Assembly (NCBI RefSeq): GCF_015665295.1
Contig: NZ_JADFAJ010000011.1
Location: 21,652 to 85,651, forward strand
Reading direction: 5' to 3'
Origin: Maricaulis sp.
GTDB lineage: Bacteria > Pseudomonadota > Alphaproteobacteria > Caulobacterales > Maricaulaceae
DNA length: 64,000 nucleotides
The notes under the pieces: model-generated
Database searches by the model: none
What the model saw: only the letters and a program-made list of their open reading frames with translations
Told to the model about the DNA's origin: nothing
Program-made: the position numbers and the translations under genes
Shown here: piece after piece, positions 17,069 through 34,035 of the stretch
Layout: each line of letters starts with the position of its first letter
Numbering within the stretch: position 1 is the first letter of the stretch

Positions 17069-18457
17069 CTAATTCCAGGGCGTTAAGTCAAGGTTAGGGA
17101 AACGCGATTCGCGGGAAACCCCTGCAGCGGCATCATAGATTTCCACGTCCAGGCCAAGCGTTTCCGCAGAGGCCAGCCCCATGGCCTGCAACAGGCGATA
17201 GCCGGCAACAAAGCTGTCGCGCTCGGCGGTCACGAAGGTGAGACGCGATTCGAGCAATTCCTGTTCGGCATTGAGCACATCCAGCGTGGTGCGGATGCCG
17301 ACGAAGGCCTCCTGCTGCACGCCATCCAGCGCAATCTCGTTGGCACGCACGGCCTGGCGGCTCGATTCGATCACGGCCAGCGACGCAACATAGGAATACC
17401 AGGCATTGGTCACGGCTTCGGTGACCTGGCGCCTCGCGTCACGGACCAGGAAGCGGGCCTGCTCTTCCTGCGCCACGGCGGCGCGGACGCGCGACCGGTT
17501 GAGGCCGCCCGTGAAGATCGGCATCGAGACCTGGCCCATGATCGATGCGCTGTCGCGAACATCGCCGGAAAAGCTTGAATCCCGGGCCGAAGAGGCCGAG
17601 GCGGTCAGCGAGACTTCCGGACGCAAGGCGCCGCGGGCAATGCGGATCGCATGCTGGGCGGCCTCTTCGCTATAACGGGCAGCCAGCAATTGCGGGCTGT
17701 TGTCGAAGGCGTATTCCGCGGCATCGGCCAGATTGTCCGGCAGGGGCGGCAGGGCGGGCGGTTCGCTCAGCGAGGCGGCCGGCTGACCGGTCACGCGCTC
17801 ATAGGCAGCGCGGCTGGCCGCCATCTGCGCCTGGGCGGCAGACAGCTGGGTCTGGGCCAGCGACAGGCGCGCCTCGGCCTGCGACACGTCGGTCCGGGTG
17901 ATCTCGCCAACCTCGAACCGGTCGCGCGCGGCCCGCAGTTGCTGGGCGAGGACTTCGACATTGTTCTGGCGGATCTCGACGACATTGCTGTCGCGTCGCA
18001 CATCCATGAAAGCCGTGACGGCACTCACCAGCACGGTCTGCTCGGTCGCACGAAGGTTTTCACGCCCCGCCATCACGACCGCGGTCGCCTGGTCGATCGC
18101 CCCGTCGATCCGGCCACCGCGATAGATCGGCTGGCTGGCCGAAAGGCCGTAATTCTTGGGCGTTGCATCCGACTCGTAACTATTGGTGGAATTGTTGATC
18201 TGCGAGAAGCTTTCGCCTTCCGCGTGCGATCGCGAGATCGAGGCCGAGGCTGAAACCGACGGCAGACGTCCCGCCTCGGCCTGGACGCGCCCCTCATCGG
18301 TGGCACGCAGGCGGGCGCGTTCGGCCTGCAGGGTCGGGTTGGAGTTGTAGGCCAGTGCCAGCGTCTCTTCGAGCGTTTGTGCCTGCCCGGCGCCGGCAAG
18401 CGCGAGGGCCGATGCACCCGCTGCCAGAACGAGCGCCAAATTCTTCAATCGCGACAT
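17069..18457 (-). CDS. tolC: TolC-family outer membrane efflux protein
   Basis: The 462-aa product has a signal peptide (ALALAGAGQAQ), TLEETLALAYNSNPTLQA and two repeated OEP halves. Confidence 0.9.
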   Translation of the reverse strand: MSRLKNLALVLAAGASALALAGAGQAQTLEETLALAYNSNPTLQAERARLRATDEGRVQAEAGRLPSVSASASISRSHAEGESFSQINNSTNSYESDATPKNYGLSASQPIYRGGRIDGAIDQATAVVMAGRENLRATEQTVLVSAVTAFMDVRRDSNVVEIRQNNVEVLAQQLRAARDRFEVGEITRTDVSQAEARLSLAQTQLSAAQAQMAASRAAYERVTGQPAASLSEPPALPPLPDNLADAAEYAFDNSPQLLAARYSEEAAQHAIRIARGALRPEVSLTASASSARDSSFSGDVRDSASIMGQVSMPIFTGGLNRSRVRAAVAQEEQARFLVRDARRQVTEAVTNAWYSYVASLAVIESSRQAVRANEIALDGVQQEAFVGIRTTLDVLNAEQELLESRLTFVTAERDSFVAGYRLLQAMGLASAETLGLDVEIYDAAAGVSRESRFPNLDLTPWN

Positions 18458-18768: not shown

Positions 18769-19422
18769 TCAGAGGACGAATCCGGCCTCGGCCTGGAAAC
18801 CCGGCAGCGGCGCGACATTGGCGTCGAAAACGACACGCTCGCCGATCCCTGCTGCCGAACGGGTAAAGATGGTCGCCTTGCCGATCGGCCCCTTGCTGAT
18901 CACGGCAGCCAGACGTCCGCCGGGCGCCAGCTGGTCGAGCCAGGCCTGGGGCACCTCATCGACCGCCCCATTGACGAAGATCACGTCGAACGGTCCCTGC
19001 TTGGCAACGCCGGCCGCCAGATCGCCCTCGATCACGACGGCATTGTCGGCACCAATGTCAGACAGCAGGCTGGGCGCGCGCGCCAGGCTGTCCTCGTCTG
19101 ACTCAAGCCCCACGACGGTTCCGGCCATACGCGCCAGGATTGCAGTCGAATAGCCGCGGGCACACGCGATATCGAGCACCAGCTCATCCGGCTGGATGTC
19201 CGCCGCATGCACCAGCTTGGCGAAATCGCGCGGCCGCATCAGCGTGCGCTCATCGCCGATCGCGACCTGGGAATCAGAATAGGCTGAGGCGCGCCGGGCG
19301 CGCGGCACGAAGAGGTGTCGCGGCACATCAAGGAAGGCCGCGATCAGGCGCCGGTCCGTGACATCTGACGGGCGGATCTGGCAATCCACCATCTGCTTGC
19401 GCGCCGTTTCGAATTCGCTCAC
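18769..19422 (-). CDS. pcm: protein-L-isoaspartate O-methyltransferase family protein
   Basis: The product contains MVDCQIRPSDVTD..L..AFLDVPRHLFVP and LDIACARGYSTAILA (SAM motif). I propose the GTG start at 19422, preceded by GGGAGAG. The ORF-track ATG at 19500 is an alternative. Confidence 0.8.
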   Translation of the reverse strand: MSEFETARKQMVDCQIRPSDVTDRRLIAAFLDVPRHLFVPRARRASAYSDSQVAIGDERTLMRPRDFAKLVHAADIQPDELVLDIACARGYSTAILARMAGTVVGLESDEDSLARAPSLLSDIGADNAVVIEGDLAAGVAKQGPFDVIFVNGAVDEVPQAWLDQLAPGGRLAAVISKGPIGKATIFTRSAAGIGERVVFDANVAPLPGFQAEAGFVL

Positions 19423-19940
19423 GAGGCTCTCCCTGACCAGGCCCTGTTGGGGTACGGATTGTCGCTGATATATCCCGGCATCGCACAGCGCCGCAAGCAT
19501 GCCACTGCGCGCGCGTGGAATTGCCCTGCAATCGGAAAGGGGATGACCGTAGCTCTTCGCCCTGACAGGGCGAAGCGGATCGCCCCATGGCGGCGAGACG
19601 GCGTGGGTGACGGGAGGTCGGTGACAGAACGCCGGCCCAGCTTCGGCACTGAACGACCGCCCCTCAGTAGCTGGCGCATTGGAATCGGCGGCGAGCGCGT
19701 CCGGGAAAGCTCCGCGAACGGGATGCCGGCGAAGTCACCTTGTGCAAATCCACCGGCTGTCGGCATCGGCCAGCACTCCCCTGCCCTCCCATTCTTTCGG
19801 CGTGAAAGCGTGCGGAGCGAACGGCGTGTTGTCACACGACCAGCCCGTCGCGGAAAAGCGCGCGCGGCGCGGGCCCGGGGATCAGCCATCTGCTCGGCCG
19901 GAGGATGTCCATTTCAGGTGATATGGCGGAAGATCCTGAA

Positions 19941-19985
19941 ATGGTGAGCCGACAGGGATTCGAACCCTGGACCTACTGATTAAAA
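19941..19985. repeat. att-like direct repeat: duplicated 3' part of tRNA-Lys
   Basis: atggtgagccgacagggattcgaaccctggacctactgattaaaa is identical to 21856..21900. Identity ends inside the anticodon-loop position. Confidence 0.9.
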
Positions 19986-20129
19986 TTTACAATATTACTT
20001 CATTAAATCAACGAGTTACCTGTCTAGCCCGCCGAATTCGCGCCATTTGAAATCAAGCACTTATATGAACCACGTTAAACGGCAACACTCTTCGCGGCAG
20101 CCGGTTGGCCCACACGCGAAAGCTACGCA

Positions 20130-20783
20130 TCACATCAAATAGTTCCAGAAGATCGCTCCGATTGTGCACGCTAGAGCGAGAACAAAACCAATTGCCGCGA
20201 ACAACAGAACCCGCCGGGTGTGTTTGCCGAGCCACATTGTGAGCGTGTGAGTAACCCCCTTCCGCACATTCTCCTCTGAAAAGTCGTATGGATTTCTGTT
20301 CGACAATGCCGCCAACTCGTTCCGTATCGGCGCGGCAATATCCTCGGTCGGCTGCTTGAGTCCTGCCATGGCAGCAGAAAGGTTGGCGAGCTCAAGATCT
20401 TCTGTAGCGTGCGCCATCGCCAATGAATGTGCCGCGAACGCGTGCTGGCGAAGCGCATAACCATCCTGCAGCAGGAACCCGACAAATGTGATCGTGACGA
20501 ATATCCCGATGGCAACGACCGCTAGCACGAACGCCTCAATCGGGACGTCATCCGCGACCGCATCAGCCAACCAAATCAAGATCGACCCGGCTGCTGCTCC
20601 GCTAGCTAGAAAGAGCAGCCTGTTCATTTCGAGCAGCGCCTGTTCTGCCTTCTGCCATGCACTATCCTTGGAGGCTCGATAGGAAGCGACCTGTCTTGCA
20701 AGTCGCTCCGCGCTCAAACGAGCAAATCTTTCCGGAACCTCCTCAACCACATCGGCCTCATCGCTGGTCATCGCGCCCTCCAT
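20130..20783 (-). CDS. three-TM membrane protein of unknown function
   Basis: The product is 217 aa (alternative ATG at 20771). It has an acidic helical N-terminus followed by three hydrophobic segments. Its start overlaps the upstream DUF4238 gene. Confidence 0.6.
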   Translation of the reverse strand: MEGAMTSDEADVVEEVPERFARLSAERLARQVASYRASKDSAWQKAEQALLEMNRLLFLASGAAAGSILIWLADAVADDVPIEAFVLAVVAIGIFVTITFVGFLLQDGYALRQHAFAAHSLAMAHATEDLELANLSAAMAGLKQPTEDIAAPIRNELAALSNRNPYDFSEENVRKGVTHTLTMWLGKHTRRVLLFAAIGFVLALACTIGAIFWNYLM

Positions 20784-21636
20784 CGGCCTTACCAGGCCAG
20801 ATCGAACTTAAACTCGAAATTAGGATTTCTGACCTGGAGCAAACCGCATCGCTACGGCGCATGGTAGCAACATTCACCGCACGAACATCGCTATCGTCCT
20901 TCACTCCAAAAACCTTGTAGCCGCCTCCATCCCCGCAGAGGCCTATTGCGATATCCGGGGCGATCGGCATCGACATTTCAACACTCGCGTCCCATAGCGG
21001 GAGTGAAGCATCGGGGACGCTCGCCACGCGTTGACGAAACCGTCCTATCGGCACGTCTCCCAGCACGAACGACTTTTTTGAGTTGGCGAGGACCGCGAAG
21101 AACAAGTCTTTCCTAGCGAACACCTCCGCGATGTTGTCGCTACCCTTCACCAGGGTGTCGATCAGAGCATTATCTAGGACATCAAGCAGCTCTAGTCGGA
21201 CGCCTTCGACGCTCTCCTCAGGCACAGATCCATCCAGCAACGCATCGTCGAGACGTTCAATTTCCTCGCATTTCACCCGATTAAGCTGATAGGGAACCCG
21301 CATAAACTGGTGATAGAAAAACCCTTCCAGAGAGCGCCGCTCTGGTCCGGTAAACAATGGCGCCCGGCCTGCACGCAAATCGCGAACAGCCCTGTCGATC
21401 AAGGGGGCCCATTCACTTTCGGCCTGCCCGTACGCCCGTTCAACTGCCGGGTCTCGCAGATTTTCGCCGTCGCGATATGAATACAAATGCCGCTGCCAAA
21501 AAACGCCTGACGGAGATCGTAGCTCTGCTCTCCGGTCGGCGCGCGCTCTTTCAAGATACCAAACTCGGCCGTCCGATCTCGCGAAGTTCCGGATTACGAA
21601 CTGTGGCACGAAATGATGACGCTTGGGCTTCCCCAT
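20758..21636 (-). CDS. DUF4238 domain-containing protein
   Basis: The 292-aa product has the N-terminus MGKPKRHHFVPQFVIRNFA..., which matches the HH-VPQ-F-L-NF signature I associate with DUF4238. Confidence 0.65.
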   Translation of the reverse strand: MGKPKRHHFVPQFVIRNFARSDGRVWYLERARADRRAELRSPSGVFWQRHLYSYRDGENLRDPAVERAYGQAESEWAPLIDRAVRDLRAGRAPLFTGPERRSLEGFFYHQFMRVPYQLNRVKCEEIERLDDALLDGSVPEESVEGVRLELLDVLDNALIDTLVKGSDNIAEVFARKDLFFAVLANSKKSFVLGDVPIGRFRQRVASVPDASLPLWDASVEMSMPIAPDIAIGLCGDGGGYKVFGVKDDSDVRAVNVATMRRSDAVCSRSEILISSLSSIWPGKADGGRDDQR

Positions 21637-21856
21637 AGGACCGCCTGCCTTCTCAACGGGAGGGCGACCACTGTGCCAGCGATTCGAGCCAAAGACCGAC
21701 GAATATGCAATCAGATGAAATTAGCAGGAATTTCAATAACTTACTTGTTAAGCACGCACCAGTTCACACGTTCGAGTGTTAAAAGGCTCCAGAGATCCGC
21801 CAACCGGTGGCGAACGGAAAGAGCAACAAGCATTTGAATTTTATGGAAGAAAAGGA

Positions 21857-21932
21857 TGGTGAGCCGACAGGGATTCGAACCCTGGACCTACTGATTAAAA
21901 GTCAGTTGCTCTACCAGCTGAGCTATCGGCTC
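21857..21932 (-). tRNA. tRNA-Lys (anticodon UUU)
   Basis: The reverse complement is GAGCCGATAGCTCAGCTGGTAGAGCAACTGACTTTTAATCAGTAGGTCCAGGGTTCGAATCCCTGTCGGCTCACCA. It folds as a cloverleaf with a 7-bp acceptor stem, a CTTTTAA anticodon loop, GGTTCGAATCC in the T-arm and an encoded CCA. Confidence 0.93.
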
Positions 21933-32243: not shown

Positions 32244-32506
32244 GTCATCCTGAAGAAAGTCAGGACCCAGTCTCGCAGACCCGATTTCGCCGAACCCTGC
32301 AATGACGTCGCGTCGCAGACTGGGTCCCGATTGTCATCGGGATGACGGTGGGTCCGGGGTTTCCAATACCCTTGTCATCCCGGGCGGAGCCCTGACTTGA
32401 TCAGGGCGCAGATCCGGGACCCATACGCCCGGTGCGGCCAGCTTTCGCGATAATGGGTCCCGGCTCTGCGGCCTGCTTTCGCAGGCCATTCGGCCGGGAT
32501 GACAAG
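32244..32506. repeat. cluster of REP-like palindromic elements (GTCATCC[CGG]-hairpin-[CCG]GGACCCA family)
   Basis: Two ~54-nt copies lie in inverted orientation (32371..32424 and 32453..32506). They share termini but have different internal stems. A shorter variant sits at 32244..32270, and a GTCATCGGGATGAC palindrome at about 32333..32346. Confidence 0.8.
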
Positions 32507-32596
32507 CGGGTGGGGGACAGGTGACATATCTCTCTCCCCCGTCCACCCCGGCGCCGTCGCGCAGACCGATCCATACATTGCTTGTCAGCCAGCAGG

Positions 32597-32675
32597 CCGT
32601 ATCGGGTTCTTCAGCTCAAGGGTGAAACCGCGAAGCGGCGGCTGCGCCGCCCTTGACCTGAAGAACCCGATACGG
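32597..32675. repeat. long inverted repeat (26-nt arms, 25/26 complementary, 27-nt loop)
   Basis: ccgtatcgggttcttcagctcaaggg pairs with cccttgacctgaagaacccgatacgg. It lies about 115 nt upstream of the nuclease-like ORF. Confidence 0.9.
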
Positions 32676-32790
32676 CGAACTCCCAGCAAGCAGATTATGG
32701 CAAGGTCTGCGCCGGGGCGCCTGAACAGAGCGGAAGCGGTTTTGGCACAGATCGATGCGCAAAAAGGCCGACGTGAGCCAGGAGATATCG

Positions 32791-34035
32791 ATGCGGCAAT
32801 ATGGATCACCGATATTGATCGACGCCAGCGGGACTGTAGCGAAGCCCCTTTCCCCGGTGCAACGGAGCGGGAGCGCAGAGGTGCGCGGATACGACGAGGC
32901 GTTTATCCAGCGCCTCGTGCTCAACCACCCGGCGCTCTTGCCGCTGAACGAAATCGACCCAACCTGCGTCGATCCCGTTCCTGTTTGTGATGAGCTGCCC
33001 ACGCGGGCCGGACCTATCGATGTATTCATGATCACTCCGACGGGCATGCCACTGCTTGTCGAATGCAAGCTCTGGAACAACCCCCAGGCTCGACGTGAAG
33101 TCGTCGGGCAGATCATCGACTACGCCAAAGAGCTTCAAAAGTGGTCCTACGAAGACCTCCAGCGAGCTTGCGCCGCGCGCAAAGGGGCGGACTTCGAGCT
33201 ATTCAATTTTGTGGCCTCTTGCACGGGAAACCTCGATCAGAAGACGTTCACCGACAATGTCACCCGAAACTTGCGGGATGGCCGCTGCGTGCTCCTCGTT
33301 GTCGGAGACGGCATTCGCGAGGGAGTCGAGGCGATAGGCGAATACCTGACTGGATCAGGCGCATTGCAGTTCAGCTTCGGCCTTGTCGAACTGCCTGTAT
33401 TCGAGACCACCGACGGGCAACGTCTCGTCACGCCGCGCACGTTAGCGAAGACAACCATCATAGGTCGATACGTGTTTGGCTTCGCCCCGGATGGCGCTCC
33501 CCGAATTATCGATGACGGCTCGACCGAAGAAGAAGAGCAAGACGAGACCGTAGACGAGGCCAAACGCCTCATCAGCGGCGAGAATTTTGCGTTCTGGACT
33601 GACGTGCTTTCCAACCTAGAACTGGACGATCGCTCACAAGAGCTGGCTAAACCAAAGACAAGCGAGACGATCAATTTCTGGCTTCCCGCGCCCCGTGGCG
33701 GCACCATGATCAAAGACAACTGGATCACCCTATATCTGGCCCGCAGCAGCAATCAGGCTGGAATTTTCTTCACAGGCACACGCACCGGCTTTGGTGGTGA
33801 AATTGCTCGCGCGATGCTTCCCGAAATCGAGGACATCCTGGAAGAGCTTGGCCCTGAGGCTCGGCAGACTGAGCCGAAGTCTGGAAAGATCAACATAGGC
33901 GAAGCGCATGTTCTTGGCCCGCTGCACGACTCCAACAATCGCGCGGAGTTGGTCTCGTGGATGCGCGAGCGTGTGAATCGATACGTCAACACCTTCCGGC
34001 CGCGAGTGGAGGCAATCGCGGAGACATTGGATTGA
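32791..34035 (+). CDS. PD-(D/E)xK (RecB/NucS-like) nuclease-domain protein with DUF4268-like C-terminal region
   Basis: The start at ATG 32791 has AGGAG 8 nt upstream. The product contains GPIDVFMITPTGMPLLVECKLWNNPQARREVVGQIIDYA, giving D...ExK followed by QxxxY. The C-terminus (FAFWTDVLSNL...WITLYLAR...ELVSWMRERV) resembles DUF4268. G+C is lower (52/100 at 33181-33280). Confidence 0.55.
   Translation: MRQYGSPILIDASGTVAKPLSPVQRSGSAEVRGYDEAFIQRLVLNHPALLPLNEIDPTCVDPVPVCDELPTRAGPIDVFMITPTGMPLLVECKLWNNPQARREVVGQIIDYAKELQKWSYEDLQRACAARKGADFELFNFVASCTGNLDQKTFTDNVTRNLRDGRCVLLVVGDGIREGVEAIGEYLTGSGALQFSFGLVELPVFETTDGQRLVTPRTLAKTTIIGRYVFGFAPDGAPRIIDDGSTEEEEQDETVDEAKRLISGENFAFWTDVLSNLELDDRSQELAKPKTSETINFWLPAPRGGTMIKDNWITLYLARSSNQAGIFFTGTRTGFGGEIARAMLPEIEDILEELGPEARQTEPKSGKINIGEAHVLGPLHDSNNRAELVSWMRERVNRYVNTFRPRVEAIAETLD

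What the first reader, a model, noticed from the sequence alone, without database searches (positions are those of the whole stretch)
19941..21932. Integrase-less 1.9-kb islet bounded by a perfect 45-bp direct repeat of the tRNA-Lys(UUU) 3' part
The 45-nt string atggtgagccgacagggattcgaaccctggacctactgattaaaa occurs at 19941-19985 and 21856-21900. The second copy is the stretch from the anticodon loop to CCA (+1 nt) of an intact minus-strand tRNA-Lys. Identity breaks inside the anticodon loop, which is the classic crossover region for tyrosine-integrase insertion into tRNA genes. Between the copies I find no integrase, excisionase or other recombinase ORF in any frame. There are only the two cargo genes and about 220 bp of AT-rich DNA (46/100 G+C) next to the tRNA. 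The element is therefore either a decayed island reduced to its cargo, or a minimal element mobilised in trans by an integrase encoded elsewhere.
Basis: seen in the sequence. Interest (0 to 1): 0.65.

Follow-up and report, generated by a model that had tools for sequence, protein, structure and literature searches.

The report
Integrase-less phage-defence islet in tRNA-Lys
A 1.9-kb piece of foreign DNA carrying a probable two-gene anti-phage module sits inside the tRNA-Lys gene of a Maricaulis bacterium, bounded by a duplicated tRNA end but with no recombinase of its own, and it has clearly moved between Maricaulis lineages; it is a small, tidy example of a known kind of element.

Summary
A perfect 45-nt direct repeat (19941-19985 and 21856-21900) bounds a 1,870-bp segment next to an intact minus-strand tRNA-Lys(UUU). 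The organism is a Maricaulis.

Seven related loci, representing five or six distinct genomes, have an empty site: one tRNA-Lys and no partial copy. The DNA just beyond the distal copy in the window matches the native flank of the tRNA in those genomes. The distal copy is therefore the displaced original tRNA end (attR), not a tandem-gene remnant.

The segment is compositionally foreign (54% versus 65% G+C). Synonymous divergence from another Maricaulis is 0.05-0.07 in the islet genes and 0.4-0.9 in the flanking core genes. The integrase-less unit itself has therefore been exchanged between lineages.

The cargo is a DUF4238 protein, from a family shown experimentally to protect E. coli from T7, and an overlapping gene for a protein with three hydrophobic, probably membrane-spanning, segments. 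I found no recombinase in the islet or in the 64-kb window.

A 38%-identical DUF4238 gene in another marine bacterium is the only gene of a similar 1.26-kb islet in tRNA-Val.

Best reading: a CIME-like minimal defence islet, probably mobilised in trans. How it moves is not shown. Interest is moderate.

The parts
21857..21932 (-). Intact tRNA-Lys(UUU) gene with encoded CCA. Its 3' part (U33 to CCA) is the tRNA-proximal repeat copy (attL side).
   Evidence: ARAGORN; Rfam tRNA 78.3 bits; sequence.
21856..21900 (-). Proximal copy of the 45-nt direct repeat (attL core): tRNA positions 33-76 plus 1 nt.
   Evidence: Exact match, 0 of 100 shuffles; family D1; junction alignment.
21637..21855 (-). Islet non-coding end next to the tRNA, about 220 nt, 48% G+C. 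It is conserved with indels in the L035 and TARA islets. It begins with the T-rich motif TCCTTTTCTTCCATAAAATTCAAATG and contains a short hairpin, CGCCA-CCGGT-TGGCG. It presumably holds the promoter of the cargo operon and element-side att sequences (inferred).
   Evidence: No sigma-70 consensus match. No Rfam family.
20758..21636 (-). Cargo gene 1: DUF4238 protein (292 aa), same direction as the tRNA. Probable anti-phage defence protein.
   Evidence: Pfam PF14022, E 5.9e-22, 78.8 bits against a cut-off of 27. GC3 0.59 against 0.70-0.90 in the rest of the window. The family gives T7 resistance in E. coli (PMC9122126). Homologues lie in defence islands.
20130..20783 (-). Cargo gene 2: 217-aa protein with three hydrophobic, probably membrane-spanning, segments. 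It overlaps gene 1 by 26 nt (operon). Candidate membrane effector or partner.
   Evidence: ORF. No family in Pfam, PADLOC, PHROGs or NCBIfam. Hydropathy. A 213-217-aa product is called directly after the DUF4238 gene in L035, L036, L038-L041, L045 and L071; in L037 the gene is broken into two short ORFs.
19986..20129 (-). Islet non-coding end next to the distal repeat, 144 nt, 47% G+C. The last 5 nt before the repeat differ in all three lineages (GTAAA / GTGCC / GTATC).
19941..19985 (-). Distal copy of the 45-nt repeat (attR core): the displaced original 3' part of the tRNA-Lys gene.
   Evidence: It is followed by the native tRNA flank.
19909..19940 (-). Native 3' flank of tRNA-Lys. It is homologous to the sequence that directly follows the tRNA in empty-site genomes (TTTCAGGAYCTTCCGC...).
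   Evidence: Taken alone, this flank is 84% identical to the L067 flank over 32 nt. Blocks of repeat plus flank are 88-93% identical to L067, L069 and L070. Junction table.

Best explanation
This is a very small genomic islet, 1,870 bp between the repeats. It entered the tRNA-Lys(UUU) gene of a Maricaulis chromosome by an att-type recombination, the kind that tyrosine integrases catalyse.

The element brought its own copy of the tRNA's 3' part, from the anticodon loop to CCA, so the gene stays intact at one end (attL). The original 3' part, still joined to its native flank, was pushed 1.9 kb away (attR).

The element encodes no recombinase and no transfer function. Its whole coding content is a two-gene operon read in the same direction as the tRNA. 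The first gene encodes a DUF4238 protein, a family with a proven single-gene anti-phage member. The second, overlapping gene encodes a three-segment membrane protein. Together they are most likely an abortive-infection-type defence module.

In the current vocabulary it is a CIME-like element: attL and attR are kept and the integration genes are absent.

Shown: it is an insertion, because empty sites exist. It is foreign in composition. The integrase-less unit has been exchanged among Maricaulis lineages long after they diverged, always at the same tRNA-Lys site.

Inferred: movement depends on an integrase supplied in trans by another element with the same tRNA-Lys specificity, or by riding in tandem with such an element. 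The two repeat copies are kept identical to each other and to the host's own tRNA allele by gene conversion or by selection for a working tRNA. The cargo defends against phage.
For: Repeat and tRNA.

Empty sites with conserved neighbours (YkuD-KefB-carboxylesterase | tRNA-Lys | lipoprotein-GNAT-tgt-queA).

The window's attR flank equals the native flank of empty sites.

Foreign composition: G+C 0.544 against 0.65; GC3 0.59-0.63 against 0.70-0.90.

Recent horizontal exchange. Window against L035 (M. maris GCA_015665245): dS is 0.049 for DUF4238 and 0.075 for the partner, against 0.37-0.92 for ten flanking core genes, including the lipoprotein gene about 120 bp from the tRNA (dS 0.71). dN/dS is 0.45-0.53 in the islet and 0.05-0.18 in the core. 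Window against the TARA lineage: 0.23 and 0.32 in the islet, 0.58-0.92 in the core.

Patchy distribution. By tgt, L035 is nearer to the empty-site genomes L067/L068 (0.27-0.30) and L069 (0.34) than to the occupied window (0.41).

Same unit, same ends. Homology between the window and L035, and between the window and the TARA contigs, stops at 19939-19942, the outer edge of the distal repeat.

No recombinase. Both islet ORFs lack recombinase domains. There are no tyrosine- or serine-recombinase motifs in six frames of the window. No integrase domain appears in ten candidate ORFs. tblastn with two alphaproteobacterial integrases finds nothing at E<0.1 in the window and nothing at E<=1e-3 in the 36 Maricaulis-family loci (and 3 tRNA-Val loci) tested.

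Defence function. PF14022. DUF4238 alone protects E. coli from T7 (PMC9122126). Homologues lie inside a type I R-M locus and next to HEPN-ApeA and SIR2 genes.

Signs of repeated use of the site. In L035 and L071 the attR flank starts with the islet's own tRNA-proximal motif (14-nt exact match, about 24 of 31 overall). This is what an earlier insertion would leave behind.

A complete version of the architecture exists. Sphingomonas parapaucimobilis has recJ, tRNA-Glu, site-specific integrase, DUF4238, two hypothetical genes and SIR2 in that order.

CIME definition: PMC5704250.
Against: No integrase with tRNA-Lys specificity was identified anywhere. None of the 11 tRNA-Lys loci examined (some from the same genome or lineage) carries a larger, integrase-bearing element at this site.

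A simple reciprocal crossover cannot explain the repeat alleles. Both copies carry the host lineage's own tRNA allele: T-loop GAATC in the window, GAGCC in L035, acceptor CGGGCTC in TARA. One copy should be element-derived, yet the elements are far more alike than the hosts. An extra process, conversion or homologous recombination, has to be assumed.

The identity block is also not the same in all lineages. It runs from position 33 to +1 in the window and from about 41 to +13 in TARA.

No arm-type repeats were recognised in the islet ends. The Lys and Val islet ends do not align.

The defence role is by family membership and context only. PADLOC-DB v2.0 models do not hit either protein.
Confidence: 0.65

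Rival explanations
1. Integrase-independent spread. The islet has no working site-specific system any more, or never needed one. It moves between Maricaulis cells as part of short DNA fragments, through gene-transfer-agent particles, transformation or vesicles. It is inserted or replaced by RecA-type homologous recombination. The almost invariant tRNA sequence on one side and the tRNA 3' half plus flank on the other serve as portable homology.
For: Both repeat copies always carry the recipient lineage's tRNA allele. Heteroduplex repair during homologous recombination would produce this, and a reciprocal integrase crossover would not. The extent of the identity block differs between lineages. 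The most similar part of the islet is its interior (95-100% identity), and the non-coding ends drop to 87-88%, like a recombination tract. Between L035 and L071 the neighbouring lipoprotein gene (dS 0.02) travelled with the islet (dS 0.00) while tgt and queA are at 0.14. No integrase was found.
Against: In the Lys islets of the window and L035 and in the Val islet the homology block starts in the anticodon loop. That is a signature of integrase-shaped attP sites and is not needed for homologous recombination. Arms of 32-76 nt are very short for RecA. Between the window and L035 the flanking genes are not co-transferred at all; the lipoprotein gene has dS 0.71. Whether Maricaulis makes gene-transfer agents was not examined.
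Confidence: 0.17
2. Immobile relic. A larger integrase-bearing defence island (tRNA, int, DUF4238 and further genes) inserted once in an ancestor and decayed to its int-proximal cargo. The present distribution reflects vertical descent plus losses by recombination between the repeats. The low divergence of the cargo reflects a selective sweep of a useful allele.
For: The architecture tRNA, integrase, DUF4238 and further genes exists in Sphingomonas. Deleting the integrase would give the arrangement seen here. Deletion between 45-nt direct repeats would regenerate a perfect empty site. The L035 attR flank shows that remnants do accumulate at this site.
Against: Synonymous divergence of the islet genes (0.05-0.07, and 0.23-0.32 to TARA) is far below that of the core genes on one side, right up to the tRNA (0.4-0.9). 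The non-coding islet ends, at about 12% divergence, also lie below the synonymous divergence of the core genes. Occupied genomes are not a clade in the tgt and queA comparison. No integrase pseudogene remnant is detectable in the islet.
Confidence: 0.1
3. The DUF4238 protein is itself the recombinase of a new kind of minimal tRNA-targeting element. This would explain why two homologous DUF4238 genes head two integrase-less islets in two different tRNA genes.
For: The window protein and its closest relative outside the Maricaulis islet clade (P0005, 38-40% identical) both sit 175-220 nt downstream of a tRNA gene. Both lie inside a repeat of that tRNA's 3' part. In the tRNA-Val case, DUF4238 is the only ORF of a 1,257-bp unit (islet G+C 43.5% against 62% in the rest of the contig). 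The family has invariant His, Glu and Arg residues.
Against: A confident model (pLDDT 81, pTM 0.80) matches no solved structure. The best Foldseek hit has E 0.2 and TM below 0.2, so no known recombinase, transposase or nuclease fold is matched. A profile search of PDB sequences gives nothing. Of the 21 more distant homologue loci examined, 20 are not beside a tRNA: they lie in ordinary defence islands or on plasmids. The one that is close to a tRNA has a conventional integrase between the tRNA and the DUF4238 gene. A family member acts as a stand-alone anti-phage gene in E. coli.
Confidence: 0.03
4. The distal copy is what remains of a second, tandem tRNA-Lys gene, and the DNA in between is ordinary intergenic or core DNA.
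For: tRNA genes are often tandemly duplicated. For example, two identical tRNA-Asp genes lie 148 bp apart in L046.
Against: Relatives with one tRNA-Lys and no partial copy exist. There is no homology to the tRNA 5' half upstream of the distal copy in any lineage. The flank of the distal copy is the native flank of the single gene. The composition is foreign and synonymous divergence is discordant with the core.
Confidence: 0.01

Closest known systems
CIME (cis-mobilizable element), as defined for streptococcal ICE/IME systems (Guedon et al. 2017, PMC5704250)
   Same: It is bounded by attL and attR made of the 3' end of a tRNA-Lys-type target. It has no integrase, excisionase or transfer genes and carries only cargo. 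It can only move with help.
   Different: CIMEs are described as decayed ICEs or IMEs, and their movement has been shown by accretion with an ICE. Here no parent element or helper is known and the unit is only 1.9 kb. Evidence for movement is comparative (synonymous divergence, empty sites), not experimental. The host is a marine alphaproteobacterium.
tRNA-gene integrated genomic islands and satellites with tyrosine integrases of the anticodon-loop sublocation class (Williams 2002, cited from my own knowledge and listed as ref. 26 in PMC10121019)
   Same: The identity block runs from the anticodon loop to the 3' end of the tRNA. The tRNA is restored by element DNA. The original 3' end is displaced with its native flank. 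G+C is low and distribution is patchy.
   Different: The defining integrase gene next to the tRNA is absent. Both repeat copies carry the host lineage's allele, which one reciprocal crossover does not predict.
DUF4238 single-gene anti-phage system from the P2 prophage hotspot (Rousset et al. 2022, PMC9122126)
   Same: Same Pfam family (PF14022). It is carried as a mobile-element cargo gene.
   Different: No sequence match was found in the phage collection at E<=1e-3, and the validated E. coli protein itself was not retrieved or compared. Here the gene is coupled by overlap to a membrane-protein gene. It sits in a tRNA islet instead of a prophage hotspot. The function is untested.
Defence hotspots at tRNA loci with no identifiable means of mobilisation (Hochhauser et al. 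2023, PMC10121019)
   Same: A defence cargo sits at a tRNA locus, present in only some genomes, and lacks a recognisable mobile-element backbone.
   Different: Those E. coli hotspots are large and variable in content, and many still hold integrases. This is one fixed two-gene unit with precise att-like ends.
tRNA-Glu, integrase, DUF4238, two hypothetical genes, SIR2 island of Sphingomonas parapaucimobilis YK209 (NZ_CP155750.1)
   Same: An alphaproteobacterial tRNA-linked island in which a DUF4238 gene lies near the tRNA end and reads in the same direction as the tRNA.
   Different: It has a 605-aa site-specific integrase between the tRNA and DUF4238, plus further defence-type cargo. Its DUF4238 protein is only 29% identical. 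No distal repeat was found within 31 kb.

Membership tests
tRNA-integrated genomic island (integrase-type att duplication) | Direct repeat made of the 3' part of the target tRNA gene, with an intact tRNA at one end | tested here: met
   45-nt perfect repeat covering U33 to CCA plus 1 nt. The tRNA is intact by ARAGORN and Rfam.
tRNA-integrated genomic island (integrase-type att duplication) | Empty site in related genomes, and the distal repeat joined to the native flank of the tRNA | tested here: met
   Empty sites in L067-L070 and L072-L074. Native flank after the distal copy.
tRNA-integrated genomic island (integrase-type att duplication) | Composition and divergence discordant with the chromosome | tested here: met
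   G+C 0.544 against 0.65, GC3 0.59-0.63 against 0.70-0.90. dS 0.05-0.07 against 0.37-0.92.
tRNA-integrated genomic island (integrase-type att duplication) | Integrase (tyrosine or serine recombinase) gene inside the element | tested here: not met
   Only two ORFs, DUF4238 and a membrane protein. No recombinase motif or tblastn hit in the islet or in the 64-kb window.
CIME (cis-mobilizable element) | Retains attL and attR | tested here: met
CIME (cis-mobilizable element) | Lacks integration and transfer genes | tested here: met
CIME (cis-mobilizable element) | Derived by decay from an ICE or IME | tested here: inconclusive
   No parent element was found at 11 tRNA-Lys loci examined (some from the same genome or lineage), and the islet holds no integrase remnant. 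A tRNA-integrase-DUF4238 island in Sphingomonas shows that a possible parent type exists.
CIME (cis-mobilizable element) | Excised, integrated or transferred with the help of a cognate integrase or ICE | not testable with these tools
   This needs the whole genome of the strain and experiments. Only comparative evidence of movement is available.
DUF4238 anti-phage defence system | Protein belongs to Pfam PF14022 over its full length | tested here: met
   E 5.9e-22, 78.8 bits (cut-off 27), profile positions 1-271 of 281.
DUF4238 anti-phage defence system | Recognised by models of a curated defence-system database | tested here: not met
   No PADLOC-DB v2.0 model hits either protein at E<=0.1. 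I did not establish whether that release contains a DUF4238 model.
DUF4238 anti-phage defence system | Homologues lie in defence islands or mobile elements | tested here: met
   Within a type I R-M locus with AHJR-like and Ymh genes. Next to HEPN-ApeA, SIR2 and transposases. With integrase and SIR2. On alphaproteobacterial plasmids.
DUF4238 anti-phage defence system | Confers resistance to phage when expressed | not testable with these tools
   Shown only for an E. coli prophage homologue (PMC9122126).

The most novel reading that the evidence does not exclude
DUF4238 islets may be a family of ultra-minimal defence elements of 1.3-1.9 kb: one or two genes plus a copy of a tRNA 3' half. They would spread between lineages with no recombinase of their own. 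The tRNA fragment would act as the whole 'mobility module', either as bait for any resident integrase of matching specificity or as a universally conserved homology arm for RecA-mediated insertion. Conversion to the host's tRNA allele would follow at each landing. That would be a way for single defence genes to travel that current mobile-element detectors, which look for recombinase genes, cannot see.
Probability: 0.2. Interest if true: 0.65.

Novelty: new member of a known kind. Interest (0 to 1): 0.4.

Why it matters
Many anti-phage genes sit at tRNA hotspots with no visible means of getting there (PMC10121019).

This locus is an unusually clean case for studying that. The whole element is two genes and two 45-nt repeats. 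Occupied and empty alleles exist in close relatives. The divergence data show that the recombinase-less unit itself has travelled. A second, even smaller DUF4238 islet at tRNA-Val suggests the arrangement recurs.

It offers a simple system for asking two questions. The first is how integrase-less defence cargo is mobilised, by a trans-acting integrase or by homology. The second is how the duplicated tRNA end is kept identical to the host's allele.

It also adds a DUF4238 variant with a membrane-protein partner to a defence family whose mechanism is unknown.

Tried and rejected
- PADLOC, PHROGs and NCBIfam scans of both cargo proteins gave no hits.

The 4-sequence alignment returned 14 distant loci plus a copy of the tRNA-Val islet gene on a contig too short to show the tRNA. 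None has a tRNA beside the gene or a repeat of a tRNA end; two have a tRNA-Ser about 2.4 kb upstream. The tRNA link is therefore not a general property of the family.

- The viral contig scan found nothing.

- tblastn against phage genomes found nothing.

- DNA searches of the islet against plasmids and phages matched only the tRNA part.

- Structure route: the model is good, but Foldseek against the PDB and a profile search of PDB sequences gave no meaningful match. The fold gives no mechanistic lead and no support for a recombinase role.

- A possible third, degenerate copy of the tRNA T-arm inside the islet (21677-21700, family D2) is not significant. A local alignment score that high was reached in 43 of 500 shuffles. 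I dropped it.

- The non-coding ends of the Lys and Val islets do not align convincingly, and no shared arm-type motif was found.

- No sigma-70 promoter consensus and no terminator at the gene ends were found. No Rfam family besides the tRNA was found.

- A search for integrase remnants or integrase genes in the window and in the 36 Maricaulis-family loci (and 3 tRNA-Val loci) tested was negative.

- No distal repeat was found for the Sphingomonas tRNA-Glu island within 31 kb.

- The Williams 2002 paper on tRNA sublocations is not held in the library. I cite it from my own knowledge only.

- I first suspected that the synteny break with pcm coincided with the repeat. It does not. Native spacer sequence continues to at least 19645.
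Full report
**1. The observation**

The 45-nt string is present exactly twice in the window, at 19941-19985 and 21856-21900. Both copies are on the same strand with no mismatch. None of 100 dinucleotide-preserving shuffles produced even one match at up to 3 mismatches.

The only tRNA gene in the 64 kb is tRNA-Lys(UUU), on the minus strand at 21857-21932. It scores 78 bits against the Rfam tRNA model.

Read on the tRNA strand, the repeat covers U33 of the anticodon loop through the encoded CCA plus one base. The base before it is C32 in the gene and A in the distal copy.

Two overlapping minus-strand ORFs fill most of the 1,870 bp between the copies: 20758-21636 (292 aa) and 20130-20783 (217 aa). 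They read in the same direction as the tRNA. They are flanked by 220 nt (48% G+C) and 144 nt (47% G+C) of non-coding DNA.

**2. Where the window comes from, and the neighbourhood**

The pcm gene next to the distal repeat is 91% identical in protein to that of Maricaulis maris DSM 4734. Thirty-four related loci were retrieved, mostly Maricaulis.

In the 20 Maricaulis-family loci scanned for tRNAs, pcm lies next to tRNA-Cys and, where the contig reaches far enough, tRNA-Asn. It is never next to tRNA-Lys. Homology of close relatives with the window stops at about 19525.

The other side of the islet (lipoprotein, GNAT, tgt, queA and on to gyrA) is syntenic with M. maris GCA_015665245 (L035). There the tRNA-Lys is followed by the same two cargo genes, a second copy of the tRNA 3' part, and then a carboxylesterase gene. 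Homology between L035 and the window ends at 19942, the outer edge of the distal repeat.

**3. It is an insertion**

Orthologues of the lipoprotein gene, which lies about 120 bp from the tRNA, were used to fetch the same locus from other Maricaulis.

- Seven loci are empty sites: L067 and L068, L069 (Maricaulis sp. W15), L070, L072 (M. parjimensis DSM 16078), and L073 and L074. They represent five or six distinct genomes. Each has one tRNA-Lys, no partial copy and no DUF4238 gene. Where the contig extends that far, the same neighbours (YkuD, KefB and usually the carboxylesterase gene) follow on the far side.
- L035, L071 and a set of TARA Oceans contigs (L037-L044) are occupied.

The junction table shows the classical relationship.

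- In the window, the sequence after the distal copy is CACCA|TTTCAGGATCTTCCGCCATATC.
- In the empty sites, the sequence that follows the tRNA is CACCA|TTTCAGGACCTTCCGCAACATC in L067 and a similar sequence in L069.
- Taken alone, the flank is 84% identical to that of L067 over 32 nt. Blocks of repeat plus flank are 88-93% identical over 58-77 nt.

The distal copy is therefore the original 3' end of the gene, displaced with its native flank (attR). The 3' part of the working gene now adjoins element DNA (attL).

**4. It is foreign, and it has moved as this minimal unit**

The interior G+C is 0.544, against 0.651 and 0.647 in 10 kb on either side. Third-position G+C of the two genes is 0.59 and 0.63, against 0.70-0.90 for nearly all other ORFs of the window.

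Window against L035, by the Nei-Gojobori method:

| Genes | dS | dN/dS |
|---|---|---|
| Ten flanking core genes, including the lipoprotein gene beside the tRNA (dS 0.71) | 0.37-0.92 | 0.05-0.18 |
| DUF4238 | 0.049 | 0.53 |
| Partner gene | 0.075 | 0.45 |

Window against the TARA lineage: the islet genes are at 0.23 and 0.32, and the core genes at 0.58-0.92.

Occupied genomes do not form a clade. By tgt, L035 is closer to the empty-site genomes L067/L068 (0.27-0.30) and L069 (0.34) than to the occupied window (0.41).

In all three lineages the unit has the same two non-coding ends and the same gene content, although in contig L037 the partner gene is broken into two short ORFs. What has been exchanged between lineages is therefore the integrase-less 1.9-kb unit itself. 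It is not a larger element that later decayed three times to the same remnant.

The interior of the islet is 95-100% identical between the window and L035, and the two non-coding ends are 87-88% identical. The ends are still much less diverged than synonymous sites of the core genes. The gradient could reflect constraint on the genes or a recombination tract.

**5. The cargo**

The 292-aa protein matches Pfam DUF4238 over its full length (E 5.9e-22, 78.8 bits, cut-off 27). A single DUF4238 gene from the P2 prophage hotspot gives strong resistance to T7 in E. coli (Rousset et al. 2022, PMC9122126). The family is counted as a defence system in later surveys (PMC12629846; PMC11350192).

An exhaustive phmmer search found 1,020 cluster representatives at E<=1e-3, but only 7 at E<=1e-30. 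The window protein therefore belongs to a small, divergent clade.

More distant relatives (25-30% identical) lie in typical defence contexts:

- inside a type I restriction-modification locus with AHJR-like and Ymh genes;
- next to HEPN-ApeA, SIR2 and transposase genes;
- on alphaproteobacterial plasmids.

The second gene overlaps the first by 26 nt. It encodes a protein with three hydrophobic segments (about 55-76, 84-105 and 192-214) and belongs to no known family. A product of 213-217 aa is called directly after the DUF4238 gene in L035, L036, L038-L041, L045 and L071.

My inference is a sensor or enzyme plus a membrane effector, of the abortive-infection type. This is not shown.

An AlphaFold model of the DUF4238 protein is confident (pLDDT 81, pTM 0.80). 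It has no significant structural neighbour in the PDB; the best match has E 0.2 and TM below 0.2. A profile search of PDB sequences gave no hit either. The fold gives no mechanistic lead and, in particular, no hint of a recombinase.

**6. No recombinase**

Neither islet ORF has a recombinase domain. Three checks of the window were negative:

- Six-frame motif scans for tyrosine and serine recombinases found nothing.
- Pfam scans of ten integrase-sized or low-GC3 ORFs found none.
- tblastn with two alphaproteobacterial site-specific integrases found nothing better than E 0.17 in the window, and nothing at E<=1e-3 in the 36 Maricaulis-family loci (and 3 tRNA-Val loci) tested.

None of the 11 tRNA-Lys loci examined (some from the same genome or lineage) carries a larger integrase-bearing element at this site.

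**7. A sister islet in another tRNA**

The closest relative of the window protein outside the Maricaulis islet clade is P0005, at 38-40% identity. It lies in marine metagenome contigs (L046-L049) 175 nt downstream of tRNA-Val(UAC).

It is enclosed by a 53-nt direct repeat (94% identical, perfect from the anticodon loop to CCA) with a spacing of 1,257 bp. It is the only ORF inside. That islet has 43.5% G+C, against 62% in the rest of the contig.

So two related DUF4238 genes head two integrase-less islets in two different tRNA genes. The link is not general. Fourteen more distant loci from the metagenome scan, five from look-ups and two on plasmids have no tRNA beside the gene.

One informative exception is Sphingomonas parapaucimobilis. 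It has, in order, recJ, tRNA-Glu(UUC), a 605-aa site-specific integrase, DUF4238, two hypothetical genes and SIR2. That is the same layout with the integrase still in place. It suggests a parent architecture in which DUF4238 is the cargo gene nearest the integrase. Loss of the integrase would leave what is seen in Maricaulis.

**8. What does not fit a simple integrase story**

The tRNA-Lys gene is slightly polymorphic in the genus:

- T-loop GAATC in the window and L069;
- T-loop GAGCC in L035 and L070;
- T-loop GAACC in L067 and L068;
- acceptor stem CGGGCTC in TARA and M. parjimensis.

In every occupied genome both repeat copies carry that genome's allele. After one reciprocal crossover, one copy should be element-derived, and the elements are far more alike than their hosts.

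The block of identity also differs between lineages. It runs from position 33 to +1 in the window. In TARA it runs from about position 41 to +13, with a degenerate anticodon region.

Gene conversion between the copies would explain this. So would selection for a tRNA whose acceptor strands pair, or insertion by homologous recombination with mismatch repair. I cannot tell which from the data.

In L035 and L071 the flank of the distal copy begins with the islet's own tRNA-proximal motif. The match is 14 nt exact and about 24 of 31 overall, at the same offset from CCA. This is what an earlier insertion at the same site, later deleted, would leave.

**9. Interpretation**

The best-supported reading is a CIME-like minimal defence islet. 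The att sites are retained and the integration genes are absent, which fits the definition in PMC5704250.

It was inserted by att-type recombination into tRNA-Lys(UUU), it carries a probable two-gene anti-phage module, and it has recently been exchanged among Maricaulis lineages. I put this at 0.65. Within it, the insertion and the horizontal exchange are close to certain, and the trans-acting integrase is an inference.

The main rivals are:

- integrase-independent spread by homologous recombination using the tRNA as portable homology (0.17);
- an immobile relic whose alleles swept (0.10);
- DUF4238 as a new recombinase (0.03);
- a tandem tRNA gene remnant, which is refuted.

**10. Novelty and score**

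All the ingredients are known: tRNA att duplications, integrase-less att-bounded elements, defence cargo at tRNA hotspots with unclear mobilisation (PMC10121019), and DUF4238 as a defence gene.

What is new is a particular member. It is extremely small, it has demonstrably travelled without a recombinase gene, it has a sister at tRNA-Val, and its repeat copies track the host allele.

I rate it 'new member of a known kind', interest 0.4. There is a 0.2 chance that it represents a more general, recombinase-free way for single defence genes to spread.

Noticed in passing
window 19526-19644 (breakpoint interval); pcm 18769-19500, tolC 17069-18457: This genome has a chromosomal rearrangement. In the 20 Maricaulis-family loci scanned for tRNAs, pcm lies next to tRNA-Cys (and tRNA-Asn where the contig reaches), and in other Maricaulis the tRNA-Lys spacer leads to carboxylesterase-KefB-YkuD. 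Here the tolC-pcm block is joined to the native tRNA-Lys spacer. pcm-side homology ends at 19525 and spacer homology to L067 reaches 19645. The window contains no tRNA-Cys or tRNA-Asn. The breakpoint is 300-400 bp beyond the islet and not at the repeat. I could not exclude an assembly join.
   Followed up: partly
L035 11696-11730 and the same sequence in L071: The flank after the distal repeat in M. maris GCA_015665245 and L071 is CTCCTTTTCTTCCATATTTTCAAGTG. It resembles the islet's own tRNA-proximal end, not the native flank. The native spacer resumes roughly 100 nt further on. This looks like the scar of an earlier insertion at the same att site.
   Followed up: partly
L046 74-1406 (also L047, L048, L049): A 1,257-bp islet in tRNA-Val(UAC) of an unidentified marine bacterium. 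It has a 53-nt repeat of the tRNA 3' part and a single ORF, a DUF4238 protein 38-40% identical to the window's. Islet G+C is 43.5% against 62% in the rest of the contig. Two identical tRNA-Asp genes lie 1.8 kb further on. The host and any empty-site alleles were not determined.
   Followed up: partly
L081 / L084 (Sphingomonas parapaucimobilis YK209, NZ_CP155750.1, about 340,000-351,500): A defence-type island with the gene order recJ, tRNA-Glu(UUC), 605-aa site-specific integrase, DUF4238, two hypothetical genes, a 1,265-aa SIR2-family protein, and an IS256 further on. No distal repeat of the tRNA end was found within 31 kb.
   Followed up: partly
L001-L021, between tRNA-Asn and tRNA-Cys upstream of pcm: The distance between tRNA-Cys and tRNA-Asn varies from about 0.75-0.85 kb (L001, L009, L018, L019, L021) to 3.2-4.8 kb (L002-L008, L010-L012, L017). 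No repeat of either tRNA end was detected. This may be another variable spot. Its content was not examined.
   Followed up: partly
window 32372-32622 and 32755-34035: Short stretches at 32372-32512 and 32548-32622 match non-syntenic intergenic positions in L035 (downstream of its distal repeat), L037 and L038 at 74-83% identity, which suggests a small dispersed repeat. The adjacent 426-aa ORF has the lowest GC3 outside the islet (0.68) and no Pfam family.
   Followed up: no
L037 6678-7384 versus L038/L039: In TARA contig L037 the partner gene appears broken into two short ORFs (86 and 95 aa). The otherwise near-identical L038-L041 have an intact 213-aa gene, and about 50 nt do not align. This suggests an indel or frameshift variant in the population.
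   Followed up: no
L036 (1,956 bp) and L045 (1,945 bp), Logan contigs: Two run-level contigs consist of exactly the islet from inside one repeat copy to the end of the other. A de Bruijn graph breaking at a 45-nt repeat would produce this, but an excised circle would produce it too. The contigs alone cannot distinguish the two.
   Followed up: no
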